A model generated the notes under the pieces. The model ran no database searches, was not told where the DNA came from, and saw only the letters and a list, made by a program, of their open reading frames with translations. Positions 8,401 through 24,783 of a stretch of DNA of 64,000 bases are shown piece after piece. The position numbers and the translations under genes were made by a program. Position 1 is the first letter of the stretch. Each line of letters opens with the position of its first letter. Location of the stretch: NCBI GenBank assembly GCA_024655945.1, contig JANLFK010000001.1, forward strand, positions 588,116 to 652,115, in the 5' to 3' direction. The stretch comes from Candidatus Zhuqueibacterota bacterium (lineage in GTDB: Bacteria > Zhuqueibacterota > Zhuqueibacteria > JANLFK01 > Oleimicrobiaceae).

Positions 8401-10587
8401 GACTGGTTCGAGGCGGACTCGGTGCTGCTCGTGCACGCCTCCCCTTCACCGGGATTTGCCTTTGGCGGCTGGGACGGGGATCTCAAGGGAAACGCCAACC
8501 CTGCTTCGCTTCTCATCGACCGGCCCAAAGAGGTCAGCGCGCTCTTTGTGCCCATGGGCATGGTGCGCGTCACCTCTGAACCAGAAAACCTGCTGGTCAT
8601 CGTGGATGGCACTTCGTGTCTGACGCCGCACGACTTTGTCTGGCAACCCGGTTCGGTGCACACCGTGGAGGCCGTGTCCCCCCAGCAATATGACCGCCTC
8701 AGGCACACCTTCCAGTTCTGGAACGACGGCGGCGCCCGGACCCACTCTGTGACGGTGACCGGACCGGCCGTGTTCGTCGCCCACTACCAGAAGGAGTTTT
8801 TCGTCGCCACGGCGTGTTCGCCTCCTGAGGGAGGGAGCATTGTGCCGCCGCCACCAGGCGCATGGGTTGCCGAGGGCGAAGCTCTTCTGCTCCAGGCCAC
8901 GGCAAATGGCGCCCAGGGTTACCTTTTCGCCGGCTGGAGCGGCGACCTTGTCGGGACAGACAACCCTGACACTCTGCTCGTCACCGAGCCGAAACAGGTC
9001 ACGGCGAACTTTGTGAAGATCGGGCACACCACGATCGCCACCGTACCCGAAGGCCTCTCTATAATCGTGGACGGCACCCGATACACTGCTCCGCAGGAGT
9101 TCGTCTGGGCCCCGGGGTCCAGTCACCTCATCGCCGTGGAGTCGCCACAGGCTGTGGCACCTGGCCTCCGCTACGTCTTCGAGGAGTGGAGCGACCACGG
9201 CGCTCAGAGCCACACCATCACTGCTTCAAGCGGGGCGTTCTACACCGCTTCCTTCCGGGCGGAGTACGCCGTATCCATCGCCGTCGAGCCGCAAGGAGCT
9301 GGCACGGTGGAGCTGTCACCCCCGGGTGGCTGGTACCAGGAAGGCGCTTCCGTAACCCTGACGGCGAGGCCCGACTCGGCGCAAGGCTATGAGTTCGCCC
9401 GGTGGAGCGGCCATTTGACCGGCAGCGACAACCCTGCGACCTTGGCGGTGGACTGCCCAAAGGCGGTGGTGGCGCACTTTGTGGCATCGGACGTGCTGCC
9501 GCCGCTTCTTGTCTATGTCTATCCCCCTGCCGGTGCCACCTTCGTGCCCACGAACACGGCAATTGATTTAGCTATCAGCGACAATCCTGGCGGACGCGGG
9601 CTCGACGCCAAGTCGGTCGTCGTCAGCGTGAACGGCACCACGGTCGTCAACGGCGGCTCGGTCCTGCCAGGACAGCAGGCCACCTTGCGCGTGCGCGACG
9701 GGCTGGCGACGTTGCATTTCGTGCCGGCTGTGCCACTTGCTCCCCAAAGGCCGGTTGAGGTCCGCGTGCAAGCGGCTGACCTGGCCTCGCGCCCGCACAC
9801 CCTCGACACCACCTTCACCTTCACCCTCGGGCCCTATCCGGTGCTCGTTACGGCCATGGAGACGATTGGCCCGCAGGGCGGCTTTGTAACCGACCCCGTG
9901 CACAAGCTGCAGATCAGCGTTCCTGCCGACGCCCTCTCCGACTCGACCACGATGACAATCGCCGTGGCTCCCAGCCCGCCACCGCTTCCGGACTCGCTTC
10001 TGGCTGTGGGTCCCACGTTCTACCTTGGACCGGACGGCCTGAGCTTCCTTGACTCGGTGACGGTGGCGATGCCCTACACCCAGGCCGACCTGGTGGCAAC
10101 AGGCGCCAATGAGCCATCGGCCATGCCGGTGTACCGCTTCGACACTGCACGTTCCCGGTGGGAGAGACTCCGAGTCGGCCGCGTCTACCGCAATTTCCTC
10201 CTGGTGCCGATGCGCAGCTTCTGCTACCTCCTCTTCTGCGGCCCGCGCGGCACGCAGGTGGTCACGGAACAGGCTCCGCTGCCGGAGGTCTTTGCGCTGC
10301 GCGGGGGCTTCCCCAACCCGTTCAACAGTGGTACCACCTTCGTTCTGGACCTCCCTCATCCCTGCGCGGTGAAATTGACCTTCTACGACGCCTCTGGCAG
10401 GAGAGTGGCGAGTGTCGATGCGGGGGTGCTGCCGGCGGGCAGCCATCGCCTGCCTTGGGAGGCCCGCGATGCCCGGGGAGACGCCTTGCCCACCGGCATC
10501 TACCTTTGCCGCGTGGAGGCAGGGGCGCCCGGTGCGTCTCGTTCCCCAGCCTTCATCGCCACCCGCAAAATCGCCTTAGTGCGCTGA
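5416..10587 (+). CDS. giant surface protein: cutinase/PETase-like alpha/beta hydrolase + Ig-like domain + about 10 InlB-B-like repeats + T9SS type-A C-terminal sorting domain
   Basis: Single 1723-aa ORF; N-terminal hydrophobic signal-like segment; nucleophile elbow GHSFGGG (Ser codon 5941-5943), Asp in GAELDAIN, His in GGNHMQF; repeats of type GGTVSP.PPG.W...VTL.A.P.PGY.F..WSG.....NP..L.M..P..V.A.F; C-terminus GGFPNPFNSGTTFVLDL...GIYLCRV. Confidence 0.85.
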   Translation: MDSESTWDGTRGPWRRRPRLVVPPLLGLVHFAAPLLFFLAAPTVLSADELQQYGVGRRDTTFYRAGRTLHTAVYYPATSSGSGAPLNTSGAPYPLLVFAIGKRMQVEHYLSYYEHLAASGYVVMAPQFPDVDSPSAYTWNEDLRDCITQALNARTVPGSVFYQAIDPGKIGLFGHSFGGGTVVGVAADDGRVRVTCAIAPNNPGNYSFNKMPNVHTPIHILGAELDAINSVEAIGRPLYERGNPDKALLVVKGGNHMQFSDYTGFDSVDTPATITRAQQLAITKEHLVNLFDAYLKGRSSARTQLYGTATLTKDSVFLWFETQAASASRLVYVSGNGQSAPPGQLTLLPVVFKVVDAQGNALPRHTVHFQITAGGGSLAGQTWRDLETDADGLVSIYPRLGPSEGVANNLIAVSAYKGTAHLTDSPQTVALSGTTQPLRRIVVHSDPATLTYQVDNVAYSSPQTFLWPTGSSHTVSAPSPQGEAAGTRFVFSSWSDGGALSHAYTVPARDDTLVVTFRTQYLLTLASAYGAPTGGGWYDAGSVASFRVDRHVPAGQARRMSLSGWVGTGSGSYSGPDSAATVTMHGPVTETAIWHTEFFLTTAQNPPAGGTVSPAPPGAWYDSSATVTLVATPAPGYAWGSWSGTINSTVNPLSFVMTGPTAATANFVRLALLTFRTEPPGLTVVVDTVSYVIPRTFSWLPGSVHTVSATSPQAGGAGVQYLFDSWSDGNPRTHNLVTPARDDTLVARFRTQFFLAVQSAHGSPRGQGWYDSGAQAAFSVTTPDSQAGTRHLFQQWTGDFTGTSPSGTVLMDRPKTVTALWKTQHLLTVLSPYCTASGAGWHDEGSQALFRVQPCVVYDSAGTRRVFAGWTGTGPGSYTGPDSTGTIVVQGPVTEVASWQTQYQLTVSSPYGSPVGAGWYPAGATAHFAVTSPEVEGLRRHVFRRWSGHFSGTQPAGTLVMRGPRTVTAEWGDQFYLAITAEPPEGGTVTPQPPGDWFEADSVLLVHASPSPGFAFGGWDGDLKGNANPASLLIDRPKEVSALFVPMGMVRVTSEPENLLVIVDGTSCLTPHDFVWQPGSVHTVEAVSPQQYDRLRHTFQFWNDGGARTHSVTVTGPAVFVAHYQKEFFVATACSPPEGGSIVPPPPGAWVAEGEALLLQATANGAQGYLFAGWSGDLVGTDNPDTLLVTEPKQVTANFVKIGHTTIATVPEGLSIIVDGTRYTAPQEFVWAPGSSHLIAVESPQAVAPGLRYVFEEWSDHGAQSHTITASSGAFYTASFRAEYAVSIAVEPQGAGTVELSPPGGWYQEGASVTLTARPDSAQGYEFARWSGHLTGSDNPATLAVDCPKAVVAHFVASDVLPPLLVYVYPPAGATFVPTNTAIDLAISDNPGGRGLDAKSVVVSVNGTTVVNGGSVLPGQQATLRVRDGLATLHFVPAVPLAPQRPVEVRVQAADLASRPHTLDTTFTFTLGPYPVLVTAMETIGPQGGFVTDPVHKLQISVPADALSDSTTMTIAVAPSPPPLPDSLLAVGPTFYLGPDGLSFLDSVTVAMPYTQADLVATGANEPSAMPVYRFDTARSRWERLRVGRVYRNFLLVPMRSFCYLLFCGPRGTQVVTEQAPLPEVFALRGGFPNPFNSGTTFVLDLPHPCAVKLTFYDASGRRVASVDAGVLPAGSHRLPWEARDARGDALPTGIYLCRVEAGAPGASRSPAFIATRKIALVR
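6700..9500 (+). repeat. tandem protein-domain repeats (InlB B-repeat-like, with Ig-like spacers) inside the giant CDS
   Basis: Recurring about 70-aa modules with conserved W/G/P positions seen at least 10 times in the translation; the DNA copies are divergent. Confidence 0.6.
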
Positions 10588-11374
10588 GGGGCTGGTAGGC
10601 TTTCCCCATTCGCAAACTGCCGGGTGCCTCGCCGCCGATAACGGCTGACGAGCCTTGTGGCCGTTGTGAGGACCCTCAGTGGCCAAGAAGAACCACAGAT
10701 TGGTACAGATTCCCAAGGATGCGAGCCAACCCCCACTCATGAAGCCCTGAACTGTCGCCACCAGCGGTCCGTCAACCTCCAAGGATTCTAACCGCTGGTC
10801 AGCTCTGACGTTGTCATCGGCGCCTCTCACCGGAGTTCATACAACCACAGCTTGAGGCGGATCTCCACGGAGTGAGCTGAGACAAGATCGCGCAGGCGGC
10901 TGAGCCGTTCGGTCTGCCAATGACCGCGGACTTGGCCGCCGATGTCCGTTGCCGACATTTTGCTGGGCCATATCGCCACGTGCCCGCCGCTCATGACGGA
11001 CCACAGATAGGCACCGATGTTCACTGCCAGAAGACCAGACCGGCAAGAGTCGCTGATTTGCCGCCTCCGGTCGGCGGAGCCCGAGGCCTTGCCGTCGCAA
11101 GGACATGCCGATGAGCTTTCATCCGCTGTCAGCGGTCCAGGAGAACCCGCATTGTGGGAGACGTGGCCACGAGTCTTCGCCGAGCGGGAGAATGGGAGAT
11201 GGTCGCCTATGGCGATACCAGCCCTGGCCCTCGGGCGACGGCCCGCAAGTCCTACCTCCCGTATCAGTGCCCATCAATGATTCATGGTGAAAACCGGGTT
11301 GGCGCCGATCTTGACACGGAGTAATTGACCAAACCATCAGCATCTGGCCTCTCTCCCGCACGCGATTTTTTTTC

Positions 11375-11671: not shown

Positions 11672-14125
11672 TTGCCGTATTTGTCCTGCTCTGGCCCTCT
11701 TCCGAGGCTCTGCAGGACCCCAAGCTCTTGCCCTACCGACTTGTTCCCGTCAAAGAACTGCCCCCCTCTCCTCACGACCCACGATGCTAACCACGACGGC
11801 TACGATGAGTGCTACCATGCGCGGAGTCTTGGTCCTGCCAAAGCGCTCACTGGGACCATCGAGCAGCGGGACCACAGGGGGAATAGCACAGAGCAGTACA
11901 ACTTCCCTGGTGCAGAGACAGCTTCTCTCAGCTTTGCGGACTTGGTGGGCGACGGCCGCGAGGAACTGGTTGTCTGGCTCCTCCGCAATGACACTGCCTT
12001 TGTGGATATCCGCACCACGGACGACCAGCGGGTGACCCGCTTCCCTGCGCTCACCACCGACGAGCATACCAACCTCGACAACATCGGACGCTGGGATTGC
12101 CCAGGGTTCCTAATCGACAGCCGCGACTTGGACGGGGACGGGCAGAATGACCTGATCTTTCTGGTGCGCACAGGACATGCCGGGTCTCCCCGCGGTCTTT
12201 TCGCTTTCCGGTTTCCAGACGGCGCCATCTTATGGCAGGAGAAGATGGTGGCGTTTCCCACCGCGTCACTCGCCACCGACTTGGAAGGGGACGGGCTGCC
12301 GGAGTATGTACTCGGCACGGACACCCCACAGAATCTAAGGGCGCCAATCAACGGCACGAAGGACGACGTGGCTTACCTAATGGTCTTTGACCATGACGGC
12401 AAAAGACTTTTTAGGAAAGAGCTCGCCGCCAAGGGTACGTTTGTCCGCACCTACCAGTTCCGCGAGCACGCCCAGGGAACGGCGCGGTGCGCAGTCTTGT
12501 GTAACCGGGTCCAGAAGGAAGCACAGGTCCTGCCCAGCGACCTCTTCGAGATGGAATTCCCGCAGCTGGCCCTGCGCCGTCTCTTGCCGCCGCCTCCCTT
12601 CTCCCGCTCGGCCTTCACCATTGCCGACCTCGATGAAGATGGTATCTCCGAAGCCTTGCTCGTTGCCGAAGACTCGAGGGCTCAACTTTACCGCTATAGT
12701 GTCGACAAACGGGTTTTTGTGCCCCAACTGGAACGCAAGGTGCCCGTTCAGGGCATAGATGGTGCAGCCGGCGTCGCGTGCTACGACCTCAACCTGGACG
12801 GTACTAAGGAAGTAGTGTGCGAGACGCTCAGAGGGTTTGTCGTGCTCGACGCGCGGCTAAGGCTCCTCGGAGCAGATGCTGGCCTGGGAGGCCCCTTACT
12901 CATAAGACGGGGGAAAGAGAAGCCCCTGCTGGTAGCCAATCGTAGAGACCGAGAGGGCTCCCTCCTTCTGCGGTTCGAACCAACCCCGCATCTCTGGTGG
13001 AACTGTGCGGCCATCGTGGCGCCCCCATTGGCCGTAGTGGTGGTGCTTGGTCTGCTCACCTGGCACTTCTTGCTTTCGCTCTCCGCCTACTGCAGCCTCC
13101 CTGTGCTTAGCCCTACAGCGAACTGGGTGCGGTTAGACCGCCACCTGCGCCCACGGGAGTGGAGCGGGGCGCTGGCCGAGCGGGTCAACCGGAGCACGAC
13201 CTCAATTTCCTTGGGCGACCTCCTGCCACCGAGCGCCGTGCAGTATGTGCAAGGTTGGCTGAGGGTACATGGTGCCCACAGTGCCGAGAGCGTTCAGGAG
13301 CTCGAACTGCCGGACCGAACGCACGGCCTCTTCATCTTCGAGTGGTACCCCCGGCCTGGGCTAACTCTCTCCGGTGGTGGCGTCCTTCTCTGGCGCCAGC
13401 TCCCCGTCTCCGCGCCGTTCCGCTCCGGGGAGTGGCTCAAACTGACCCGCGGCATGGTCCACGACCTGAACAATCCCCTTTCGGCGGCACTGACACTGCT
13501 GGGACGCCTGCGGCGGGAGTTGCAGCCCACAGTCCAAAATCAGGATCAATGCCAGGAGCACCTCGGAGAGATGGAGAACCAGGTCGTGCAAGCGCGCAAC
13601 ACGGCCCTTCGCTTACCCTCTTTGATGGACTTGGCATCGCACAAGCCACGCCCATGCGATGTGAACGCTCTGGTCGAAGAAGTTTGCAAGCAGTTCCGTG
13701 GCGAGGTGGGGCCGGAGGTACTCTTTCACCTCAACGCTGGCAAGGACCTCCCCCTGGTGCACGTGGCGCACGATGCCTTGCGCATGGCCCTGCGCAACGT
13801 CATCCAGAACGCGGTGGAAGCGGTGGGCAAACGTGGGAACATCTTCCTCACCACCTACCGTGAAAGCAGGCAGCGCCCGGAGAGCAGCCAGTGGGAAGAG
13901 TGGATTGTCATCGAGGTTCTCGACGACGGGCCGGGCATCCCGCCGGACCTTCTGGGCAGGCTGTTTGAGCCTGGTGTGACCACCAAGCCAGGAGGCTCAG
14001 GCGTCGGTCTCGCCATTACCAAGGAGATAATGCAGTCGCTGCAAGGCGACGTGCGCGTCGAGTGCCCAGGGGGGCACGGTACCTCGGTCACGTTGAGCAT
14101 TCCGGTGCGCCACCCTCCCGCCTAA
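11672..14125 (+). CDS. sensor histidine kinase with FG-GAP/VCBS-like beta-propeller sensor domain (N-terminus unresolved)
   Basis: Repeats FADLVGDGREEL, DLDGDGQNDL, DLEGDGLPEY, DLDEDGISE, DLNLDGTKE; hydrophobic segment AAIVAPPLAVVVVLGLLTWHFLL; H-box MVHDLNNPLSA; HATPase_c G-boxes DDGPGIP and GGSGVGL. The track start is the first TTG after a stop; a signal-like segment lies upstream in another frame. Confidence 0.8.
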   Translation: MPYLSCSGPLPRLCRTPSSCPTDLFPSKNCPPLLTTHDANHDGYDECYHARSLGPAKALTGTIEQRDHRGNSTEQYNFPGAETASLSFADLVGDGREELVVWLLRNDTAFVDIRTTDDQRVTRFPALTTDEHTNLDNIGRWDCPGFLIDSRDLDGDGQNDLIFLVRTGHAGSPRGLFAFRFPDGAILWQEKMVAFPTASLATDLEGDGLPEYVLGTDTPQNLRAPINGTKDDVAYLMVFDHDGKRLFRKELAAKGTFVRTYQFREHAQGTARCAVLCNRVQKEAQVLPSDLFEMEFPQLALRRLLPPPPFSRSAFTIADLDEDGISEALLVAEDSRAQLYRYSVDKRVFVPQLERKVPVQGIDGAAGVACYDLNLDGTKEVVCETLRGFVVLDARLRLLGADAGLGGPLLIRRGKEKPLLVANRRDREGSLLLRFEPTPHLWWNCAAIVAPPLAVVVVLGLLTWHFLLSLSAYCSLPVLSPTANWVRLDRHLRPREWSGALAERVNRSTTSISLGDLLPPSAVQYVQGWLRVHGAHSAESVQELELPDRTHGLFIFEWYPRPGLTLSGGGVLLWRQLPVSAPFRSGEWLKLTRGMVHDLNNPLSAALTLLGRLRRELQPTVQNQDQCQEHLGEMENQVVQARNTALRLPSLMDLASHKPRPCDVNALVEEVCKQFRGEVGPEVLFHLNAGKDLPLVHVAHDALRMALRNVIQNAVEAVGKRGNIFLTTYRESRQRPESSQWEEWIVIEVLDDGPGIPPDLLGRLFEPGVTTKPGGSGVGLAITKEIMQSLQGDVRVECPGGHGTSVTLSIPVRHPPA

Positions 14126-14189
14126 GGCACGCTGGCACGCCGGTTGCACTCGCTCCCAGGCCATCTCACAAAAATCGTGGCAGGAGCTC

Positions 14190-15563
14190 ATGGAAGAACC
14201 TATTCGTGTCCTGATCGCTGACGACAACCGCAACCTCCGCCTGCAGCTGCGCGATATCGCCGAGGAAGCGGGTTACCAGGTGGAAGAGGCAGCTGATGGC
14301 GAGGAGGCGATCGGCCGGCTGTCCGATGCCGATTACGACCTGCTGCTCCTCGACCTGCAGATGCCCAAGCTCTCCGGCCTGCAGGTGCTGGAACGTGCCA
14401 AAGGCCTGGCGCACCCCCCGGAAGTGTTGATCGTTACCGACTATGCCACCGTTGACGCTGCCGTAGAGGCGACGCGCTTAGGGGCATTCGACTTTATCGA
14501 GCGTGACGCCGTGGAACGGCGCCTGCCGGTGAGCATGCGCAATGCGCTGCAAAAGCGGCAGATAGAACCTGAGAACCAGCAGCTGCGCAGCCTTCGCGAG
14601 CCTGGCGAACTGCTGGGCACCAGCGCGGTGATGGCTGCCCTGCGCCAGCGCATTGCCCAGGTGGCCAAAAGCGACAGCACCGTGCTCATTCTCGGCGAGA
14701 GCGGCTCAGGCAAGGAGCTGGTGGCACGGGCCCTCCATCAACAGAGCCCGCGCGCCGCCAAGCCGTTTGTCGTGGTCAACTGCAGCGCCCTGAGCGACAC
14801 GCTGTTGGAGAGCGAGCTCTTCGGGCACGTGAAGGGGGCCTTCACGGGTGCCCACTCCGCCAAGAGGGGCATGTTCGAATGTGCCGATTCCGGCACTATC
14901 TTCCTCGATGAGATCGGCGACATGAGTCCGGCTGCCCAGGCAAAGGTCTTGCATGTGTTGGAGTACGGTGACGTGCACAAGGTGGGCTCCTTAGAGAGCA
15001 TTCGCGTGAACGTGCGCGTGCTGGCTGCAACTAATCGCCAGTTGGAACAGGATGTTGCCGAGGGTCGTTTTCGGCCCGACCTCTACCATAGGCTGAAGGT
15101 AGTCGTCTTGCACGTCCCGCCCTTGCGCGAGCACCCGGAGGATATCCCCCTCCTGGCCAACCACTTCTTGCGCACCTTTTGTGAGTTGAACCGCCGCCCA
15201 CCGGCGACTCTCGCCCCTGAAGCGTTGCAACTTCTCTTCCGCTACCATTGGCCCAACAATATCCGCGAGTTGCGCAACCTCATGGAGAGGGTGTGGATCC
15301 TGTGCAGCTCTGAGGTGGTAAACGCCTGGGAGTTAGAGCAGGTGTGGGAAAAAGAAGAGGGGCAGGTACCGGAGTCCCTGTTCCGTGGTCAGATTGTGCC
15401 GCTTGCGGAGGCCTGGCGCCAGTTTGAGCGGGCGTACATCAGGCGGGCCTTGGTCGCCTGCCGGGGCAACGTCAGCGAAACCGCGCGGCTTCTGCAGATC
15501 AACAGGAGTCATTTGCATGTGAAGATGAGGGAGTTGGGGGTGGGGGGCGGGCCAGCGTCGTAA
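14190..15563 (+). CDS. sigma-54-dependent response regulator (NtrC/Fis family: REC + AAA+ + HTH)
   Basis: REC domain LIADDN...LLLLDLQMP; Walker A GESGSGKE; GAFTGA-type sigma-54 interaction motif (GAFTGA); C-terminal HTH; ATG at 14190 with AGGAG upstream. Confidence 0.9.
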   Translation: MEEPIRVLIADDNRNLRLQLRDIAEEAGYQVEEAADGEEAIGRLSDADYDLLLLDLQMPKLSGLQVLERAKGLAHPPEVLIVTDYATVDAAVEATRLGAFDFIERDAVERRLPVSMRNALQKRQIEPENQQLRSLREPGELLGTSAVMAALRQRIAQVAKSDSTVLILGESGSGKELVARALHQQSPRAAKPFVVVNCSALSDTLLESELFGHVKGAFTGAHSAKRGMFECADSGTIFLDEIGDMSPAAQAKVLHVLEYGDVHKVGSLESIRVNVRVLAATNRQLEQDVAEGRFRPDLYHRLKVVVLHVPPLREHPEDIPLLANHFLRTFCELNRRPPATLAPEALQLLFRYHWPNNIRELRNLMERVWILCSSEVVNAWELEQVWEKEEGQVPESLFRGQIVPLAEAWRQFERAYIRRALVACRGNVSETARLLQINRSHLHVKMRELGVGGGPAS

Positions 15564-16797
15564 ATCGGGGTTGGTTTTGCGCTCTGCCTGCCGCAAAAGG
15601 ACAGGAACGTGAGGAAGTCTGTTGGAAAAGCCCAACACAGTGTGGGAAGAATCCTACAGTAGCGTGACGAACTTGCAGTAAGGTGTGGAAAGAGCCCTTT
15701 GCCTCCTTCTCGACTTCGAGGCCAGGAGGAACCAACGAGAGGGCACGAAGATTGCGTTATGCGATTATCGAGCGGCCTCGATGACCACTTCATCCCTTGT
15801 GAGAAGAGGATCCCAGGATCAGCAAAGGGGAACACTCAACGCTGCAGGAGTCGGCGGCGTTAAGCCAGCGGGTTCTCTTTTGGAGCGGGTTGAAGTGCAT
15901 TATTGGAGGGTCGGCGCCTGATGTTACCCCGAACGGGAAAGCGCTACATTGGGCGTTAGAGTTCGTGAACACTGTGTTCATCATGAGAGAAAGAGCCGCT
16001 CGCTGGCTAAGGTACTACGGTTAGCGGTGAAGCCGAGCTATGAACACGGGCGGGCTTTCTTTCCTCGCCCGATCGGACTCCCCGGGAAGGGGAGTGTTGT
16101 TGGACTGATGACAGTAGGGTTGCTGAGGCCACGGACTTTAGACACCCGCGATTGAGAGTAGGAGTACAGGCAAAGATACCTAACTTCGCAGCATGTTAAC
16201 CCTTGTTGGTGTCCTCTGAGATTCGGGTGGTGTGAAACATGGGGAGAGACACAGGCCCCGAAGGGCATCGGTACCGTACGGGAGCGCCTGCGCGACTGAT
16301 CAGTGAGGTCTTCAGATTCCTTAAACAAGTTGGAAGGAGTAGGAGTGAGACTCACGGCCATGCAGGCGCCGAAGCAGGCATGAGGACGTAACCCGGTTAC
16401 GTCGAGAGTTCCTCCCGGCGCTGCTCACTGGGTGGAACGGGGTGGGAAGTCAAGCCATTTAGAGGCCTCGCGACGATGGATGGACGGGCAGGTACGGCTT
16501 GCAGGTAGGTAGGGACCCACCAATGTGGAAAGAGCAGGAATGGGTGGCAACTCTATGTGGCCCCCCTGCGAGAGAAGGATGCTGTAGCTTCTTCACAGGG
16601 GACCGAGCAGTCAAGTTTGTCTATCAGAACGGGGGACATCTTGTGAAGGCTCCACCTCACGGGTGGAGTATACCCCAAAAGCATGGTGGGCCGCTATCCG
16701 CTGGAGCGGTGGATTGAAGCCTTTCGATGTCCTTACCCTGGAGTGATCCAGATGAGAAACGAGCGAAAATAGAATTGTCAGTCTCCATAACGCACTT
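15564..16797. other. ORF-free, purine-skewed 1.2-kb segment: candidate structured noncoding RNA or heavily decayed gene
   Basis: No ORF above about 110 aa in any frame; plus strand rich in G and A; several GNRA-like loops and clean hairpins (e.g. CTCCCC-GGGAA-GGGGAG at 16078-16094); 12-nt exact repeat TGTGGAAAGAGC at 15684-15695 and 16524-16535; composition differs from flanking genes. Confidence 0.25.
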
Positions 16798-18749
16798 GTG
16801 CGAATTGAGAGTACGAGAAGCCCCCGACGTGCCAAACCTTCGGGCTTGGCCTGGGATGGAAGTTACTTGTGGTTGTGCGACATCAGCGAGAACACCGTGT
16901 GGAAGCTTAGCCGAACCGGCCAGGTGGCGGCCAGAATGTTTGTTCCCGGTACTTATCACACTGGTCTGGAATGGGACGGCCATTCTGCGTGGCTGGTGGA
17001 CGGCGAGGCTGAACTCATCTACGAACTGGACGGCTCTGGCAACACTCGGAACTTCTATCTGCCGCCGGGGACCTTTCCCAGGGATATTGCCTGGGACGGC
17101 AGTGATCTTTGGATTGCAGATGCTGACAACGACAGAATCTACAAGTTGAGAGGTCCCATCATGGGGCCTGAGCCGAGGGCTTCGTTCACGGTAACCCCAA
17201 CGTCCGGTTTCCTGGAGACCCTTTTCCTGGTTGACGCTTCCAGTTCACAAGACCAAGTTACTCCCCTCGCGGACCTCGAGGTTCGGTGGGATTGGGAAAA
17301 CGATGGGGCGTACGACACCGAATACTCCAAGGTCAAGACTGCAAACCATCAGTACGCCTCACCGGGAACCAAGACAATTAGGCTTGAGGTCAAGGATACG
17401 GACGGGTATACCGGCACGACAACAAGAAGCGTCTCAGTAAGCGCGAGGGCCCCTCAGGCTTTCAGCCTAGTTTCTCCGCGATCAGGTGATACCGTTAGAA
17501 CGTACCTGCCCTCATTCAAGTGGCGGACCGCGCGAGACGCTGACCCAGGAGATACGGTGCGCTATTTTGTTCAGTATTCGAAAAGCTCCTATTTCTCCAT
17601 CTTCGATACACTCGCAGCAGGCACCGACACCCCTGCTGCCGTACGTGATTCTTTGCAGCAATTACAGAGGTACTATTGGCGGGTGGAAGCGGTGGATCGC
17701 TGGGGAGCAAAGACCCTGAGCTCTCAAAGTTGGAATTTCCTGGTCGCAGACCTCACGCCCCCCTCTTTCACAATCGGTCTCCTGCAGAATCCCATAATCA
17801 CAGAGGATCTCGATCTGTACGCCATCCCCAACGAGACACTGGATCAGCGCGGGGTTCAGTGTACCGCCAACGGGATCCCTGTTCCTATGTCGGAGCTCGA
17901 CGCTGCGCGTCGAATCTATGTTGGTGATTACCAGCTCTCGGGGGAGCGGAAGACTGGTGGTCATCATGAGAGGCAAAGATGCGATATGGGGAAATGAAGG
18001 TGCCGACAGCCTGTCCATCTCGGTGCAGCTAGTCAAAACAGTACAGGGGGGGGACGATCGCTAGTCTCGATGGGGCCTTGCATGCACAGTTCCCCGCTGG
18101 TTGCCTTCCTTACGACGCTTACGTCTTGGTTCTACAAGCGAACCAGGAACCAGGACGGAGGGAAGGCCTCTGTAGAAGGACAATGGAAAGTGACACAGTC
18201 ATCGCCATTGGGACAAGCTACGGAATTGAGCCCGCAGGACTCCGGTTATCCGACTCTGTGCTGTTGGAGGCCAGTTACTCGGAGAGGGCCTTGGCAGACC
18301 TAGATGAGGAGAGACTAGAGCTTGCGATCAGAGAAAGTGACGGCTGGAGATCTCTCGGCGGTGTAGTGGACAAGAAGACTGACAGAGTGACCTTGCTGGT
18401 CGACCAGCTGGGAGAATACCGTCTGCAGTGGAATCAGAAACGTCGGACGTCAGGGAGTTTTCCTTCGCACTTGGTCCTTTTGCCAAACTACCCCAATCCG
18501 TTCAATCCGACCACTACCCTACATTATGGACTGCCTGAGCGATTTTCGGGCTGGGTGGAGCTGGGTATCTACGACGCCGCTGGGCGCGAAGTGTGTTGCC
18601 TGGTGGATGAGCCTCAGAACCCCGGGTATTATTCTGTCGTATGGGACGGGAGGGATAGCTCTGGTCGGCAGGTGCCAAGCGGAGTGTACTGTTGCCGTCT
18701 GCGGGCAAACAGGCTTTCCATTGCAAGAAAGATGATCTTCCTACGCTAA
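16798..18749 (+). pseudogene. T9SS-type surface protein (WDG beta-propeller blades + PKD domain + type-A C-terminal sorting domain), frame-disrupted and lacking an N-terminal signal
   Basis: Frame 1 16798-17997 (GLAWDGSYLWLCD, GLEWDGHSAWLVD, DIAWDGSDLWIAD; PKD-like WDWENDGAYD), switch to frame 2 near 17940-17960, then to frame 0 at the G8 run 18046-18053; frame 0 continues to the sorting domain LLPNYPNPFNPTTTLHY...GVYCCRL ending at 18749. Confidence 0.55.
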
Positions 18750-18778
18750 GTTGCTCAACACAAATGGAGGAATAGCCA

Positions 18779-19459
18779 ATGACAGCCTTCATGCTCAAAC
18801 AGTCGCCTGGACGTGCGGTGTTGATCTGCCTTGTCTGCGTCGTGGCCCTCGCTACCTGCAGCAAAGAGACACCCACGGCACCAAAGAAGGGTCCCGTTAC
18901 ATGGATTGCTGAGGGCTGGAGATACTTCGAGGCGAAGGACTTCGCCGAGGCAGTTAATTGCTTCAGCACTGCACTCAACATGAATCCAAGCGACAGCATC
19001 GCTGCAATCGCGCATTGCGGGTTGGGCTGGAGTCAGGCAAGGCAGCGCGCATACGAGGTAGCTCACAACAATTTCACTTTCTCGGTCCAGAAGGACTCCA
19101 CCACGCCCGGCCCATATGTTGCCGACTCTTACGCCGGCAGGGCTGCAACCTTCTTTCGAATGAACCTCTACAGTGAGGCAATTTCTGACGTGAAGAAGGC
19201 CCTGAGCAGTACCGGCACCTATGAATTCGTTCACGACCGGACAGTGAGATTCACTGACCTTCACTTCTTGATGGCCGAAGCCTACTACCACACTCGTCAG
19301 TACCAAATGGCACAGGAAAAAGTAGACTTCCTTCGTGCCTTGTTTGCTCTTCCTCCGATCAACTGGACTGTAGTCCCCTATATGGTTGATGGTTTGGGGT
19401 ATGGAACTTACCAGGAAGCTCTTCTCAAAGCGATCGAGGGACTTCGGAGCAGAGTGTAG
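18779..19459 (+). CDS. TPR-like repeat lipoprotein
   Basis: ATG at 18779 with GGAGGA upstream; signal peptide with lipobox-like LATCS; helical repeat content; lower GC than flanking genes; TAG stop. Confidence 0.7.
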   Translation: MTAFMLKQSPGRAVLICLVCVVALATCSKETPTAPKKGPVTWIAEGWRYFEAKDFAEAVNCFSTALNMNPSDSIAAIAHCGLGWSQARQRAYEVAHNNFTFSVQKDSTTPGPYVADSYAGRAATFFRMNLYSEAISDVKKALSSTGTYEFVHDRTVRFTDLHFLMAEAYYHTRQYQMAQEKVDFLRALFALPPINWTVVPYMVDGLGYGTYQEALLKAIEGLRSRV

Positions 19460-19843
19460 GTTGTCCTTCCGTAAGTCCAGAAGGGTAAACCCAAACAAGA
19501 CAAGGGGGGAAGGTGAAACGGGACTGGAGGACACAATCGCGGCGTCCGCGGTCACAGTGTGTCCGCGACAAACGGTTCCCCCGCACCTTTTCGATCAACC
19601 TTTGTCGAGCGTCTCGAGTGCGAGATTTGGTCGAGGGAACTCCGTCGGGAAAGGGACCACGTCTGATCGTGACTCAAAGGCCTTGGAATTGAGGCGAATC
19701 CGACCACGAACTAGGTCAACGATCGGAGATGGAGGAGCCCACAAGTGAGAGAACACCAAACTGCGCGTTGTCCGCGGGAATCGGTTTCCACGGTGGGCGC
19801 CCAGAGGACGAAGTCGTCACAACGTAACGTAAAGAGGCAAGCG

Positions 19844-21383
19844 ATGAGAGAACCCAGTGGTCCATTCCGTCTTTTGATCATTTTGCTGGTATTTGTTGGC
19901 ATTGGCGCCCACGCCGGAGAAATCCGCCCCGTGAGCCCGGCCACCGTCCTGGGGCAGGTGGGGGTCGAGTTCGACGTGTATGTGCGTGTGGATCAGGTAA
20001 GCAATCTCTTCGGGGTCAGTTTCGTTTTGACCTTGGACAACGGCTATCTGGAGGCGATTTCCGAAAACCCCGAGTCCTTCATGGGCAGTGACGTGGTATT
20101 TTTGGGCCAGCACAATAATGCCGCCGGCACAGTGGCCATCGGGATTTCCCGCAAAGCTGGGCAGGGAGGCGTCAGCGGCACAGGCAATGTCGCACGGGTG
20201 CGAGAGTTGTGCAAGGGGCCACGCAGGACAGAGTCCTCCGGTTCGGGCTCGCCTCCGTGGAAGCCATCGACCCCTTGGGCGCGTCGATTGTGCTCGCTCC
20301 AGGTGAAGCCACGACTACGCTGTCCAGGTTGGTCACGGTGTGGCCGGGCGATGCTGATGATAACGGCACTGTGAACATCTTCGACATTAACCCGATCGTT
20401 GCCAATCACTGGGGCCGGACGGGGCCGCAGCGGCCCAATGCCTCTGTAAACTGGACGGGCCAGGTATGCCCACCATGGACACCGCCTGACGCAACCTACC
20501 CGACACTAACGGCGACGGCCTGGTGAGCATTTTCGACATTAATGCCGTACCGGTCAACTTCGGCAAGACTCACCCCGGAACCGCCGGGGCCCCACTCCCG
20601 ACACCGGTGGAACCCCAGGTCGTTGCGCTTGGCAAGGAAAGCGGGGTCACCTCACCGCCCATCGCGGCAAAGGGCCCGCAGCAGGTAGACAAGAACCAGG
20701 AATTCTGGGTAGACATCGAGGTTGGAGCCTTAGGCAATCCCGTCACCAACCTCAAGGTGGTCTCTTTCGAACTGACCTACACGAACACTGCCATAGTTGA
20801 CTACCTCAGTTACGAGGTGGGACCTTTCTTGACGGGCGCGATAGCAACCGTGATTCCGGATGACCCCAACGGGAAGGTAAGCGCGTCGGTCTATCGAACC
20901 ACTGGCAGCAACTCCGGCTACGGGGTAGTCTTGCGGCTGAAGTTTCGCACAAGCGCACAGGCCGCAGCGGGGCAGACGGTAAGCTTTGCCTTCGCCCAGG
21001 TGCTAGCCAACAGGGAGGACGGTAGCGTTCAGCCCTTGTCGCCCATTGGTCAGGTGGTCACCATTCAACCTGGCAGCGGCATACGCGCTGACGACTTCAC
21101 GCCCACAGAGTTCGAGCTGGTGCAGAACTACCCCAACCCCTTCAATCCTGGGACGGTCATAGAGTACCGTCTCCCGCAGGCCAGCAGGGTGACGCTGCAA
21201 GTGTACAACTTGGCTGGAGTAAAGGTGGCCTCGCTGCGGGACGGGATGGAGAGTGCGGGTCGTCATTCGGTGGTCTGGGATGGCCGCGACGAAATGGGCA
21301 GGCCTGTTGCAGCGGGGGTATACATGTGCAGGCTGGTGGCCGGAACCTACGACAAGACCATCAGAATGCTGCTGCTCAGGTAG
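19844..21383 (+). pseudogene. cohesin-like / dockerin-like / cohesin-like protein with T9SS type-A sorting domain, carrying two frame disruptions
   Basis: ATG at 19844 (AAAGAGG upstream), signal MREPSGPFRLLIILLVFVGIGAHA; cohesin-like VSFVLTLDNGYLEAI; dockerin repeats GDADDNGTVNIFDINPIV (frame 1) and DTNGDGLVSIFDINAVPV (frame 0); second cohesin-like VVSFELTYTNTAIVDYL; C-terminus LVQNYPNPFNPGTVIEY...GVYMCRL. Reading requires frame 2 -> 1 -> 0. Confidence 0.55.
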
Positions 21384-21420
21384 ACTTGCCCGCAGGGGTA
21401 AGGCATAACTAACCAAATCG

Positions 21421-21460
21421 CGAGCGCCCTGGGGCAAATGCCTCAGGGCGCTCTGCCTTG
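21421..21460. terminator. bidirectional hairpin between convergent genes
   Basis: GAGCGCCCTG...CAGGGCGCTC 10-bp stem (with extra inner pairs) followed by T-containing tails on both strands. Confidence 0.4.
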
Positions 21461-21682
21461 TGTATCGCAGCAAAGCGCGAACGTATGGTCCCCCGTCTCC
21501 AGTCCTTGGGCCGGACGTCGAGCTCGGGCGCTCAGGCCGTTACACGGTCTGTATTATCAGGAGACGGGGCGGTCTCGTTTTGCCCAGGAGGATCAAGGTA
21601 GCCGCCCAGCCACGAGGGCCCACAGCCCTCAACAAGGCACGCCACACCCTTCGTCCCGGGAATCCCACGCCGTCCGCACGCC

Positions 21683-23850
21683 TCACCACCCCACCTCCGC
21701 CACCGCCCGCCAGTGCCGGCCGGGCATGGGGTAGCCGGCGGCCACCTGGTACTGCACGTCGAAGAGGTTGTCCATTCCTGCCCGGAGGTGCCAGGTCACG
21801 CCCCAGAAGGGCACGCGCACGCCCACATTGGCATCGGCCACCGTGTGCGCAGGAAGGCGCCGCGTGTTGGCTTCGTCCGTGTAGCGCGACCCCACATAGG
21901 AGGCAGTGACATGGCCGTAGAACGGGCGACCCTGAAAACCAGCCCGCAACGAGGCCATGTGTTCCGGCCGGTAGATGAGCCGCTTGCCCTGAAGACCAGG
22001 TATGCCACCAGTATCTACCGCCCGCAGATGGCTGTAGTTCGCCTCAAGGATGAGGCGCTGCGCAAACCCCTCCCACTTGAGCCGCAGCTCCTGCCCCGTA
22101 ATCTCCGCCCTGCTCACATTGGCAGGCGACCACTTGTAACTCAGCGGGTCCATCCCCCAGACGATGAGGTCGCGGGCCCAGCGTCGGTACAAGCTGAGCT
22201 CGCCGTGCACGCGTCCGGCAGCCGGCACCCTCACGCTCAGCCCACCATCAATTTCCGTGGTCCGTTCCGGCTTCAGGTTGGGATTGCCCACGGTAAAGGC
22301 GTCCTCCGGCCAGTAGAGGTCGTTGAATGTCGGTGCGCGGAAGGAGCCACCCACATTGCCGCGTATCGCTACGTGGCTGTGCCGCACCCTGCTCAAAATT
22401 ATCCCCACCTTCGGACTGGTGACGAAACCAACCCCCTCGTAGTGGTCGATGCGCGCCGTCGGCAGAAGGTTGGCCTGCCACTCGGGGCGACCGAGCAAGC
22501 CTTTCCAGGCGGCATCGGCCTGGGCAAAGGCGCCGAAAGACTCCCGCGCGTGGGTACCCAACGAGGTACCTCGCGAGCGCTCGTTCAGATAGCTGGCCCC
22601 CAGGGACAGCACCTTGTCCTGTGCCAAGGGCAGGTCACCCTGCAAAGAGGCACCGGCGCTGACGCCTTTGTTGTCGGCATTCGACGGCCAGAAGGGATTG
22701 GGGTCAACATAGCGGGTGGCGAGCTCGTGCCGGAACCCTGTCGCCTGTACGTGCACCTTGCCGCCGAGGCTCGTCTCCACACCCAGCTGCACGCGGCGGC
22801 TGTCGTCGGTCTGCTTTGCCTCGGGACTCGGAAAGGCCAAGGATCCAGGCGCACCCCGCTCGGCATGGGACCACTCGCCGGAAAGGGTGAGGCGTGTGAG
22901 TGGAGAAGACTGCCAGCTCACCTTGCCGAAGAGTTCATCCATGGCAAACGAATTGTTGATGCGCCTGCTCTCCCTTTCCCTGTCCGTGGCTGGGTCCTTG
23001 GTGCGGTAAATAAAGTCGCCGTCGCTGCGGGCGCGGCTTGCGGCCACCAGCAGGCCGACATCGCCCTGCTGGTGACTTGCGCCAAAGTGCGCCGAGCGGC
23101 TGCCCCAAGAGCCCATGCCCGTGGCAAGCGACAGCTGAGGCCTCACTCCTCCCCGCGGCGCGCGTGTGATGATGTTCACCACGCCGGCGGCGGCATCCGC
23201 CCCATAGAGCGAGGAGAGCCCGCTACGCACAAATTCAATGCGCTCCACCGCAGTGAGCGGCAGCAGGCCGAGATCGTACCCCCCGGCTAACGGCGAATTG
23301 AGGCGCGCGCCATCCCAGAGGATGAGCACCTGTTCCGCCGAGGAGCCGCGCACCGACAGCGACTTCATGGCCGCATCCGAGCCATAGCTTTTCACAAAGG
23401 CCCCGGCCACAGGCCGCAAGGCATCAGCCACGGTGCTGCCGTTGACCATCTCTATGTCCGCGGCGGAGACCACCTCCGCCGACACGGGCAACTCCCAGCT
23501 CAGCGATCTGCCACGCTTGCCGGTGACCATCACTTCCTCAAGTTCAATGATGGTCGGCACCAGGCGCACGGACACCTGTTGGGCGCCGCGATCCGCAACG
23601 CGGAGCGTGAGCAGCTGCGGCGCATAGCCCATGTAGGAAACGCGAAGCTGGTACGTTCCTGCCCGCAGCTTGGGAAGCACGAAACGGCCCATTTCGTCGG
23701 TGGCGGCGCCCTGCCCGCCTGGCATAACACTGACGTTGGCGCCGGCGAGCGGTTTGCCGGTGGTGTGGTCCACCACCAGGCCGGTCACTTGCGCAAGGGC
23801 ACTCGAACAAAGGACCGCCACACAGAGGAGCGTCAGGAAAAGCGTCTTTT
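21683..23850 (-). CDS. btuB: TonB-dependent receptor (CarboxypepD_reg-like + plug + beta-barrel), probably cobalamin receptor BtuB-like
   Basis: ATG at 23850 with GGGAGG upstream; signal MKTQKTLFLTLLCVAVLCSSALAQ; plug motifs, C-terminal aromatic AVAEVGW; lies downstream of a cobalamin riboswitch. The btuB assignment is by context. Confidence 0.8.
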
Positions 23851-24421
23851 GCGTCTTCATCTTCGCCTCCCGTGGAACCCGGTTCACTGCTGTCTCTCTC
23901 CTACCTAACACTCCGATGGCCGCCGGCACCAGCAGCGCAAAGATTGCGGTGTTGACGGCGGCGTGGGTCAGGTAGAACACCGCCCCATAGGCGTAGGCTC
24001 CGAGCAAAGCCGGGAGGGTGAGCCGGGTCATCACGAGAAAGCCCACCGTGGTGAGAAAGTCGAAGGTCACCGTGAGGATGAAGCCGCTGGCCGCTAAAAC
24101 CAGCACTTGTGGCCAGTGGATTTTGTGCCGCCGCGCCCTCCTGCCGATCAGCCCCCCCACAAACCCCGCCAGGCCCATCCCCAAGACCTGGCTGACCAGC
24201 AGAGTGACAGAGGAGATGCCGTAGGGGTTGATGGCCGCGTAGAGAAGCTCGCCGACCATGGCCGTGGCCAGTCCTCGCCCGGCACCAAGGAAGGCGCCGG
24301 CGACAAAGGCAGTGGCGGTCACCAGCTCCACGTTGGGCACGCTGCTGAGCAGGTAGCCCAAGGCGACCATCAACCCGGCGAACATGGCCATGCTGGCCAA
24401 AGAAACGGTGCCCGGTCTCAC
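23851..24421 (-). CDS. ECF-transporter S-component-like small membrane protein (possibly cobalamin-specific); 3' end undefined
   Basis: Hydrophobic multi-TM translation MAMFAGLMVALGYLL...LLVPAAIGVLGRR; GTG at 24421 with GAGGAGGAA upstream (alternative ATG 24391); no stop codon before the btuB start, same frame. Confidence 0.55.
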
Positions 24422-24514: not shown

Positions 24515-24569
24515 CGCACGTCGCGCACGCTACGCACCGACACCTCACCCGCGGAGGCTCACACGGTGA

Positions 24570-24760: not shown

Positions 24761-24783
24761 TATCGCCAAAGAGCGACGGTGCA

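What the first reader, a model, noticed from the sequence alone, without database searches (positions are those of the whole stretch)
15564..16797. ORF-free, purine-skewed 1.2-kb segment: candidate large structured RNA or decayed element
Between the sigma-54 response regulator and a 5'-truncated surface-protein gene lies about 1.2 kb with no credible ORF in six frames, a G+A-rich plus strand, and several clean hairpins with GNRA-like or small loops (e.g. 16078-16094). A 12-nt exact direct repeat TGTGGAAAGAGC occurs at 15684 and 16524. I found no hallmark of RNase P, tmRNA, rRNA, cobalamin riboswitch or group II domain V by eye, so if this is an RNA it may belong to a poorly characterised class (GOLLD/ROOL/HEARO-like), or be new. 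The alternative is a degraded N-terminal half of the downstream gene or a scar of acquired DNA.
Basis: seen in the sequence. Interest (0 to 1): 0.65.

Follow-up and report, generated by a model that had tools for sequence, protein, structure and literature searches.

The report
Promoter region plus gene-truncation scar
The 1.2-kb gene-free stretch is a sigma-54 enhancer and promoter, then about 1 kb of orphan non-coding DNA where the front third of a broken surface-protein gene should be; nothing shows it is a large structured RNA.

Summary
Window 15564-16797 has no credible ORF, is an outlier in purine content and G-over-C skew, has more perfect hairpins than expected, and carries the exact 12-nt repeat. 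The large-RNA interpretation is not supported. There is no Rfam match even at E<=10, no similar DNA or protein anywhere I could search, and no conservation in the closest relative.

The segment has three parts.
1. 15620-15756 is a control region shared with the closest relative (L084, regulator 92% identical). It holds two tandem palindromes (TGTTGG-N6-CCAACA) 21 nt apart, then a sigma-54 -24/-12 core (GGCAC-N5-TTGC) exactly 122 nt further on in both genomes. It sits directly downstream of a GAFTGA-type sigma-54 activator gene.
2. About 15767-16755 (~990 nt) is orphan sequence, not alignable to the relative's leader.
3. From 16756 the sequence is a gene remnant. A full-length 1002-aa homologue (P0254) aligns colinearly to 16756-18746 in three reading frames. 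The first 333 residues are missing, the break falls mid-blade, and there are two frameshifts.

The segment is therefore best read as a promoter plus a rearrangement scar upstream of a pseudogene. The rRNA-like base composition and the hairpin excess remain unexplained. Interest is low.

The parts
14190..15563 (+). NtrC-family sigma-54 activator (response regulator with receiver, AAA+ Sigma54_activat carrying GAFTGA, and HTH_8 domains). Presumed binder of the palindromes downstream.
   Evidence: Translation contains GHVKGAFTGA. Pfam domains are listed. Orthologues at 92%, 81% and 80% identity lie in syntenic loci.
15620..15637 (.). Upstream activator site 1: perfect palindrome TGTTGG-aaaagc-CCAACA.
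   Evidence: Only exact match in the 64 kb; 0.02 expected. The same perfect palindrome is at L084 10332-10349. It is a conserved island in an otherwise diverged alignment.
15641..15658 (.). Upstream activator site 2: TGTGGG-aagaat-CCTACA (2 mismatches), 21 nt after site 1.
   Evidence: L084 has its second site at 10353-10370, also 21 nt after the first. Related motifs occur in distant relatives L113 and L115.
15741..15756 (+). Sigma-54 type promoter GGGCACGAAGATTGCG (-24 GG and -12 GC kept; 2 mismatches to the 16-nt consensus). Predicted transcription start near 15767.
   Evidence: The core GGCAC-N5-TTGC occurs 4 times in the window, 1.1 expected. The distance from site 1 to the core is 122 nt in both the window and L084, where the promoter is TGGCACACCGGTTGCA. 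The transcription start is inferred.
15767..16755 (+). About 990 nt of orphan, ORF-free, purine- and G-rich sequence. Probably transcribed from the promoter as an accidental long leader; origin unknown.
   Evidence: No Rfam, protein or DNA homologue. Not alignable to the L084 leader: Smith-Waterman score 12 against 11.9 in shuffles. No intrinsic terminator on the + strand.
15765..15784 (+). Hairpin TTATCGAG-CGGC-CTCGATGA at the predicted 5' end of the transcript.
15965..15981 (.). Palindrome/hairpin GTGAACA-CTG-TGTTCAT.
16077..16095 (.).
16385..16403 (.). Hairpin GACGTAAC-CCG-GTTACGTC (8-bp perfect stem).
   Evidence: No exact match in viral contigs.
16649..16669 (.). Hairpin GCTCCACC-TCACG-GGTGGAGT.
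15684..15695 (+). First copy of the 12-nt direct repeat TGTGGAAAGAGC.
   Evidence: Such a repeat arises in 4.3% of shuffles.
16524..16535 (+). Second copy of the 12-nt direct repeat TGTGGAAAGAGC.
16744..16755 (+). Breakpoint: two in-frame stop codons (16744-46 and 16753-55) immediately before protein similarity begins, in the middle of a propeller blade.
   Evidence: Sequence. tblastn similarity starts at 16756.
16756..17940 (+). Pseudogene segment A: propeller blades, PKD domain and Ig-like region. Corresponds to P0254 residues 334-734 at 52.7% identity.
   Evidence: Pfam PKD_4 match. P0002 is 58% identical.
17945..18052 (+). Pseudogene segment B, in a second reading frame. Corresponds to P0254 residues 736-770.
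18036..18746 (+). Pseudogene segment C, in a third reading frame: the C-terminal module with FlgD_ig / T9SS-type sorting domain. Corresponds to P0254 residues 765-1002.
15564..21684 (.). 6.1-kb block of lower G+C (about 0.55 against 0.62). It is absent from relatives L085 and L086, where the regulator gene is followed after ~305 nt by the convergent TonB-dependent receptor gene.

Best explanation
The segment is three things in a row, not one element.

(1) 15620-15756 is the control region of a sigma-54-dependent transcription unit. The NtrC-type activator encoded just upstream, partnered with the FG-GAP sensor kinase, binds two tandem palindromes (TGTTGG-N6-CCAACA) and activates a -24/-12 promoter 122 nt downstream. 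Transcription would run rightwards from about 15767. Conservation of the motifs and their spacing is shown. Binding and transcription are inferred.

(2) About 15767-16755 is ~990 nt of non-coding DNA under no detectable constraint. It occupies the place where the leader and the first 333 codons of the target gene should be: signal peptide, N-terminal domain and one and a half propeller blades. A rearrangement (deletion with fusion, or replacement by unrelated DNA) cut the gene in the middle of a blade at 16755/16756. If transcribed, this stretch is an accidental long leader, not a functional RNA. This step is inferred.

(3) 16756-18746 is the rest of that gene, a P0254-like T9SS-sorted propeller-PKD surface protein. 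It now lacks a signal peptide and is split by two frameshifts, so it is a pseudogene. The colinear homology is shown.

In more distant relatives the same kinase-regulator pair sits directly upstream of an intact giant T9SS surface-protein gene, with a ~330-nt intergenic region and a leader of about 75 nt. That is the likely ancestral layout.
For: Control region:
- The palindrome is unique in the window, and a second copy lies 21 nt later.
- L084 has the same pair with the same spacing.
- The GGCAC-N5-TTGC core lies 122 nt after site 1 in both genomes.
- The alignment shows these as conserved islands in otherwise diverged DNA. The Smith-Waterman score for this interval is 20 against 8.9 in shuffles, reached by 0 of 200.
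- The activator carries GAFTGA and HTH_8.

Orphan stretch:
- No Rfam hit.
- No Pfam or protein hit in six frames.
- No hit with the 120 homologues, the giant protein or the P0254 N-terminus.
- No plasmid, phage or viral match.
- No similarity to the L084 leader.
- No coding periodicity.
- Local folding z-scores are the same as in flanking genes: -0.50 against -0.43 and -0.07, p=0.31.

Pseudogene:
- P0254 aligns colinearly in three frames with a joint E of 8e-170, starting at its residue 334.
- Many 850-1000-aa proteins align to the C-terminal ORF right up to its upstream stop codon.
- The P0254 locus is also followed by a TPR gene, as in the window.

Ancestral layout: L113, L114 and L115. The whole block is absent from L085 and L086.
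Against: - The promoter deviates from the 16-nt consensus at two positions. At that stringency matches are no more frequent than chance, so support rests on the positional match to L084.
- No expression data exist.
- The orphan stretch is not featureless. It has an excess of perfect hairpins (6 against 1.5). Hairpins with G-U pairs and stems of at least 8 bp number 7 on the + strand and 2 on the - strand. Its base composition resembles that of ribosomal RNA (G 32.5, A 23.9, C 23.0, T 20.6%). Its 1-kb folding z-score of -1.43 is somewhat lower than four coding controls at -0.74 to +1.33.
- Only one close relative could be compared, and only over ~490 nt, because its contig ends.
- The lineage is very sparsely sampled, so absence of homologues is weak evidence.
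- The two frameshifts could be assembly errors. The two available assemblies are the same population, with 1 mismatch in 21 kb.
Confidence: 0.7

Rival explanations
1. A new, lineage-restricted large structured RNA, or a functional structured long leader, transcribed from the sigma-54 promoter under control of the neighbouring two-component system.
For: - It lies directly downstream of a conserved promoter.
- It is ORF-free.
- Its purine and G skew is in the top 1% of windows.
- It has an excess of perfect hairpins, and G-U-containing hairpins are more frequent on the + strand.
- A hairpin lies at the predicted 5' end.
- Its 1-kb folding z-score of -1.43 is below the coding controls.
Against: - No Rfam match.
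- The closest relative, with the same promoter, has an unrelated leader with no hairpin excess.
- No homologue was found anywhere searched.
- Local z-scores equal those of the flanking genes, and the two strands fold equally well relative to their shuffles.
- There is no terminator before the gene remnant.
- It sits exactly where 333 codons of a broken gene are missing, which explains an ORF-free gap without invoking an RNA.
Confidence: 0.05
2. The segment is the N-terminal third of the downstream gene, decayed in place by point mutations and frameshifts.
For: - The length fits. About 990 nt lie between the predicted transcription start and the breakpoint, and 333 missing codons would take 999 nt.
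- The gene remnant already shows two frameshifts.
Against: - The remnant is still 53% identical to P0254 over 400 residues, with no in-frame stop. Directly upstream, even the other half of the same propeller blade is undetectable in any frame.
- No six-frame fragment hits any protein.
- There is no residual codon periodicity.
- Uniform decay cannot erase one side of a point and spare the other.
Confidence: 0.06
3. The ~1 kb is a fragment of foreign or mobile DNA that inserted into, or replaced, the 5' part of the gene. This is one specific origin for the scar in the best explanation.
For: - Its composition differs from both flanks.
- The junction at 16756 is abrupt.
- It lies inside a 6.1-kb block of lower G+C that some relatives lack.
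- It is rich in palindromes.
- A 12-nt direct repeat 840 nt apart could be a target duplication.
Against: - There is no transposase, integrase or other mobile-element protein remnant.
- No similarity to plasmids, phages or viral contigs.
- No terminal inverted repeats next to the 12-nt repeats.
- The 12-mer repeat arises by chance in 4.3% of shuffles.
- No second copy occurs in the 64 kb.
Confidence: 0.15

Closest known systems
NtrC-family enhancer-binding protein with upstream activator sites and a sigma-54 (-24/-12) promoter, e.g. NtrC at glnAp2 (comparison from established knowledge of the family)
   Same: - The adjacent activator has receiver, AAA+ (GAFTGA) and Fis-type HTH domains.
- Two dyad-symmetric sites lie two helical turns apart, about 100-120 bp upstream of a GG-N10-GC promoter.
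- The architecture is conserved in a relative.
   Different: - The site sequence TGTTGG-N6-CCAACA is not one I can assign to a characterised regulator.
- The promoter has G instead of T before GGCAC.
- The target gene downstream is broken.
- Nothing has been tested experimentally.
Truncated and frameshifted bacterial pseudogene of a T9SS-sorted surface protein (P0254-like: signal peptide, N-terminal domain, beta-propeller, PKD, Ig-like region, FlgD_ig/Por_Secre_tail C-terminal domain)
   Same: The homology to a 1002-aa full-length protein is colinear. The signal peptide and N-terminus are lost, and the remnant is spread over three reading frames.
   Different: Gene callers annotate two separate proteins (353 aa and 188 aa). 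There are no in-frame stops inside the fragments, so the inactivation is recent, or the frameshifts are assembly errors.
Large bacterial non-coding RNAs of unknown function (GOLLD RF01998, ROOL RF03087, HEARO RF02033, OLE RF01071; accessions from memory)
   Same: A length of about 1 kb, no ORF, G- and purine-rich, and many hairpins.
   Different: - No covariance-model match even at E<=10.
- No homologues, no conservation in the closest relative, and no association with phage or mobile-element genes.

Membership tests
Any Rfam 15 family (including GOLLD, ROOL, HEARO, OLE, raiA, RNase P, tmRNA, rRNA, group I/II introns, riboswitches) | Covariance-model score at or above the family's gathering score | tested here: not met
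   One search found only a cobalamin riboswitch and tRNA-Sec, elsewhere in the window. In one search (1.6 kb, both strands, E<=10) the best score was 19.3 bits against a gathering score of 70.4, and that match lies inside the regulator gene.
Structured functional RNA (generic) | Sequence or structure conservation in related genomes, with compensatory base changes | tested here: not met
   The only comparable relative (L084) has no detectable similarity downstream of the promoter. No other homologue was found, so covariation could not be measured at all.
Structured functional RNA (generic) | Folding energy clearly lower than composition-matched shuffles and than neighbouring sequence | tested here: inconclusive
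   The mean z-score of 150-nt windows is -0.50, against -0.43 and -0.07 in the flanks. The 1-kb z-score is -1.43, against -0.74 to +1.33 in coding controls. The riboswitch used as a positive control scores only -1.75. The hairpin count is raised.
Sigma-54-dependent promoter with enhancer | -24 GG and -12 GC elements with the canonical spacing (GGCAC-N5-TTGC) | tested here: met
   15742-15755 is GGCACGAAGATTGC. It matches 14 of 16 positions of the extended consensus.
Sigma-54-dependent promoter with enhancer | Dyad-symmetric activator sites about 80-150 bp upstream | tested here: met
   Sites at 15620-15637 and 15641-15658, 122 nt before the core.
Sigma-54-dependent promoter with enhancer | A cognate enhancer-binding protein with a GAFTGA AAA+ domain and a DNA-binding HTH | tested here: met
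   The gene at 14190-15563 has the GAFTGA motif and the Sigma54_activat and HTH_8 domains.
Sigma-54-dependent promoter with enhancer | Conservation of the elements and their spacing in a relative | tested here: met
   In L084 the sites are at 10332 and 10353 and the core at 10454, the same 21-nt and 122-nt spacings.
Sigma-54-dependent promoter with enhancer | rpoN present in the genome, a mapped transcription start, and activator-dependent expression | not testable with these tools
   Only a 64-kb window is available, with no expression data.
Pseudogene of a P0254-like T9SS surface protein | Colinear homology to a full-length protein, interrupted by truncation or frameshifts | tested here: met
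   P0254 residues 334-734, 736-770 and 765-1002 map to 16756-17940, 17945-18052 and 18036-18746 in three frames. Residues 1-333 have no counterpart.
Pseudogene of a P0254-like T9SS surface protein | The lesions are real and not assembly errors | not testable with these tools
   Two assemblies agree, but they are the same population and no reads are available. The 5' truncation cannot be a homopolymer-type error.
Insertion sequence, MITE or other mobile element | Transposase or integrase remnant, terminal inverted repeats, target-site duplication, multiple copies | tested here: not met
   There are no protein remnants, no second copy in the window and no plasmid or phage match. The 12-nt direct repeat is only marginally significant and has no adjacent inverted repeats.

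The most novel reading that the evidence does not exclude
The ~1-kb stretch is a lineage-specific structured RNA, or a regulatory long leader, produced from a sigma-54 promoter under the FG-GAP kinase and NtrC-type regulator pair. It would have taken over the transcription unit after the original surface-protein gene was truncated. The hairpin excess, the strand-biased G-U hairpins and the rRNA-like base composition would then be its signature.
Probability: 0.05. Interest if true: 0.55.

Novelty: new member of a known kind. Interest (0 to 1): 0.15.

Why it matters
It matters little beyond annotation.
- A long ORF-free, purine-skewed gap can be an enhancer-promoter region plus a truncation scar, not an RNA gene.
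- The genes called here as two proteins (353 aa and 188 aa) are fragments of one broken gene.
- The one modestly useful product is a candidate binding site (TGTTGG-N6-CCAACA, in tandem 21 nt apart) and target promoter for an uncharacterised FG-GAP sensor kinase and sigma-54 activator pair. In KSB1/Calditrichota-like bacteria this pair sits next to large T9SS-sorted surface-protein genes. That gives a testable regulon hypothesis for an uncultured lineage.

Tried and rejected
Searches that found nothing:
- Rfam on the whole window and, permissively, on the region: nothing relevant. Rfam on the L084 leader: nothing.
- ARAGORN and Tandem Repeats Finder: nothing.
- Self-comparison for paralogous copies or internal duplication: nothing significant.
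- Metagenome scan with the C-terminal part of the downstream protein: no relative, and not even the source contig.
- Metagenome scan with the tandem-palindrome pattern: 26 loci, all chance matches with no regulator homologue, promoter or similarity.
- Plasmid and phage blastn and two viral-contig scans with hairpin motifs: nothing.
- Pfam on 20 six-frame fragments and a concatenated six-frame query against 5.8 billion proteins: nothing.
- tblastn of 120 homologues, of the 2159-aa neighbour protein of distant relatives, and of the P0254 N-terminus against the region: nothing upstream of 16756.

Ideas rejected:
- The second assembly, L003, is the same population (1 mismatch in 21 kb) and carries no comparative information.
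- The 12-nt repeat as a target-site duplication: marginal statistics and no inverted repeats.
- An integron attC reading of the GTAAC...GTTAC hairpin: the core sites do not fit, judged by eye.
- A second sigma-54 promoter near 16541: a poor match, judged by eye.
- A literature search for KSB1 together with sigma-54 found no paper.

Full report
**Source and setting.** The window is part of a 632-kb metagenome contig (JGI 3300038743, Ga0417229_000003). The same population was also assembled as NCBI MAG GCA_029907585.1, with 1 mismatch in 21 kb. The nearest relatives of the flanking regulator are labelled Calditrichaeota and candidate division KSB1. The local gene order is SelB, C2-domain protein, a 1700-aa PETase/Flg_new protein, an FG-GAP histidine kinase (11672-14125), a sigma-54 response regulator (14190-15563), the segment in question, and then genes for FlgD_ig/PKD/TPR proteins. 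A convergent TonB-dependent receptor gene follows at 21683-24391.

- No ORF longer than 108 aa overlaps 15564-16797.
- Codon-position GC periodicity collapses from a spread of 0.33-0.39 in the regulator gene to 0.01-0.10 in the segment.
- Purine content (56.4%) and GC skew (+0.171) lie in the extreme 0.6-0.8% of same-size windows.
- Six distinct perfect hairpins with stems of at least 6 bp are present, against 1.5 in shuffles (0 of 200 reach six) and a maximum of 5 in any other window.
- The 12-nt repeat is exact, but a repeat of that kind arises in 4.3% of shuffles.

**The segment is not a known RNA.** cmscan of the whole window at gathering thresholds finds only a cobalamin riboswitch and tRNA-Sec elsewhere. 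A permissive scan of 15400-17000 at E<=10 gives three noise hits, the best at 19 bits against a 70-bit threshold. ARAGORN and Tandem Repeats Finder find nothing.

**The segment is not a protein remnant that can be detected.**
- Twenty six-frame fragments have no Pfam match.
- All 31 fragments of at least 30 aa, concatenated, find nothing among 5.8 billion proteins at E<=10. That search would also have caught spurious ORFs called on homologous DNA elsewhere.
- There is no match in plasmids, phages or viral contigs.
- There is no second copy in the window.

**What relatives show at the same position.**
- Three syntenic loci were recovered through regulator orthologues: L084 (92% identity), L085 (81%) and L086 (80%).
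- In L085 and L086 the regulator gene is followed after ~305 nt by the convergent TonB receptor gene, which corresponds to window 21685 onwards. Window 15564-21684 is therefore a 6.1-kb block that they lack, and it has a lower G+C than the surrounding DNA.
- In L084, 693 nt follow the regulator gene before the contig ends. They cannot be aligned to the window except at three islands.
  - A perfect palindrome TGTTGG-N6-CCAACA: window 15620, the only exact match in 64 kb with 0.02 expected; L084 10332.
  - A second, imperfect copy exactly 21 nt later in both genomes.
  - A sigma-54 core GGCAC-N5-TTGC exactly 122 nt after the first palindrome in both genomes: window 15742 and L084 10454.
- This core occurs only four times in the window. 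Another copy is a perfect TGGCACGCCGGTTGCA at 14133, just before the regulator gene, and L084 has the same core (GGCACGCCGGTTGC) between its kinase and regulator genes.
- Local alignment of the interval between the stop codon and the promoter is significant: score 20 against 8.9±1.4 in shuffles, reached by 0 of 200. Everything after the promoter is at random level: 12 against 11.9±1.4.
- The regulator has the GAFTGA loop and an HTH_8 domain.

I conclude that 15620-15756 is an enhancer plus sigma-54 promoter served by the adjacent two-component system. The predicted transcription start is near 15767, which is an inference. At this evolutionary distance selection has kept the protein-binding motifs and nothing downstream of them.

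**What should follow the promoter.** In more distant KSB1 relatives (regulator 55% identical: L113, L114, L115) the same kinase-regulator pair is followed by a ~330-nt intergenic region. That region holds related half-sites (CCAACAgtgTGTTGG...) and a TGGTAT-N5-TTGCT promoter. A ~75-nt leader then leads into a 2159-aa T9SS-sorted surface-protein gene.

**The gene downstream of the segment is broken.**
- It has three 'WDG' propeller blades, a PKD domain and no signal peptide.
- Its closest homologue, P0002, carries at least one more blade at the N-terminus.
- tblastn similarity begins at 16756, immediately after two in-frame stops at 16744-46 and 16753-55, in the middle of a blade.
- An exhaustive search with the next ORF, read from its upstream stop (18033-18746), showed that this ORF corresponds to the C-terminal ~235 residues of many 850-1000-aa proteins.
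- One of these, P0254 (1002 aa, from MAG GCA_034505975.1, assigned to no phylum here), aligns colinearly to the window with a joint E of 8e-170.
  - Residues 334-734 align to 16756-17940 at 52.7% identity.
  - Residues 736-770 align to 17945-18052 in a second frame.
  - Residues 765-1002 align to 18036-18746 in a third frame.
- Its locus is also followed by a TPR gene, as in the window.
- So 16756-18746 is one gene remnant. It lacks the first 333 residues (signal peptide, N-terminal domain, one and a half blades) and is split by two frameshifts.
- The N-terminal 333 residues of P0254 find nothing in 15564-16755. Neither does the giant protein of the distant relatives.

**Interpretation of the ~990 nt between promoter and breakpoint.**
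- Similarity is 53% on one side of 16756 and nil on the other, within a single blade. The junction is therefore a breakpoint (deletion with fusion, or replacement) and not decay in place.
- The stretch is orphan, unconstrained relative to L084, and has no terminator before the remnant. I read it as scar DNA that is at most co-transcribed as an accidental leader.

**Features this reading does not explain.**
- The hairpin excess.
- The surplus of G-U-containing hairpins with stems of at least 8 bp on the + strand: 7 against 2.7 expected, compared with 2 on the - strand.
- A base composition resembling that of ribosomal RNA.
- A slightly lower 1-kb folding z-score (-1.43) than four coding controls.

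**Why these features do not change the verdict.**
- Local z-scores match those of the flanks.
- The two strands fold equally well relative to their shuffles.
- The L084 leader shares none of these properties.
- I therefore keep a 5% probability for a lineage-specific functional RNA.

**Limits.**
- The lineage is very sparsely sampled. Only three relatives have regulators above 55% identity, and all three contigs end at or soon after the regulator gene.
- Both metagenome scans and the genome scan yielded no further relatives, so covariation could not be tested.
- There are no expression data.
- The two frameshifts cannot be distinguished from assembly errors. The 5' truncation can.

**Verdict.** The large-RNA interpretation is not supported. 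The 'scar next to a truncated gene' alternative is supported in modified form, and a conserved sigma-54 enhancer-promoter was newly recognised in the first 200 nt. This is an ordinary finding of low interest.

Noticed in passing
window 14133-14148 (+): A perfect sigma-54 promoter, TGGCACGCCGGTTGCA, lies 8 nt after the kinase stop codon and 42 nt before the regulator start codon. The same core (GGCACGCCGGTTGC) lies between the same two genes in L084 (8839-8852). The regulator gene may have its own sigma-54-dependent promoter, but no palindrome of the TGTTGG-N6-CCAACA type lies upstream of it.
   Followed up: partly
window 24563-24764 (-) and 21683-24391 (-): A cobalamin riboswitch (99 bits) lies directly upstream of the TonB-dependent receptor gene, so this is probably a B12-regulated BtuB-like transporter. 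The receptor is conserved in L085 and L086.
   Followed up: no
window 5062-5156 (+), next to the SelB gene that ends near 4208: A tRNA-Sec gene (75 bits) lies close to the selenocysteine elongation factor gene. L084 and L085 align to this stretch.
   Followed up: no
window 15564-21684: This 6.1-kb block has a lower G+C (~0.55 against ~0.62) and weak codon periodicity. It is absent between the regulator and TonB receptor genes of L085 and L086. The L086 intergenic region keeps what looks like a vestige of the palindromes (CCAACAcaa...TCTGAAAAGGCCATCGG), which suggests loss there and not gain here.
   Followed up: partly
window 16936-17997 and 18183-18749: Both public annotations call these as two separate proteins (353 aa 'PKD domain-containing protein' and a 188-aa FlgD_ig protein). 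They are fragments of one P0254-like gene split by frameshifts near 17940-17945 and 18036-18052.
   Followed up: yes
L002 (ENA ERZ1742238 NODE_58106), both ends: The contig that encodes P0002 begins with ...FFFQAEDGIRD... and ends with ...SEERRVGKECRSRWSPYH. From memory, both resemble peptides common at misassembled or chimeric contig ends. The termini of P0002 should not be trusted.
   Followed up: no
L113 10481-16960; L115 5489-11912: In distant KSB1 relatives the FG-GAP kinase and sigma-54 regulator pair sits directly upstream of a 2159-aa Sortilin/FG-GAP/UnbV_ASPIC/T9SS surface-protein gene. This suggests a conserved sensor-to-surface-protein regulatory module.
   Followed up: partly
L084 end (10936-10961), L116 start (1-36), L085 end: Several relatives' contigs break within a few hundred bases of this promoter or gene start. 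This may reflect strain variation or repeats at this locus in those metagenomes.
   Followed up: no
window 15967-15994 and 17949-17979: A 31-nt match at 84% identity (E=0.017) links the palindrome region at 15966 with the site of the first frameshift in the pseudogene. It is probably chance.
   Followed up: no
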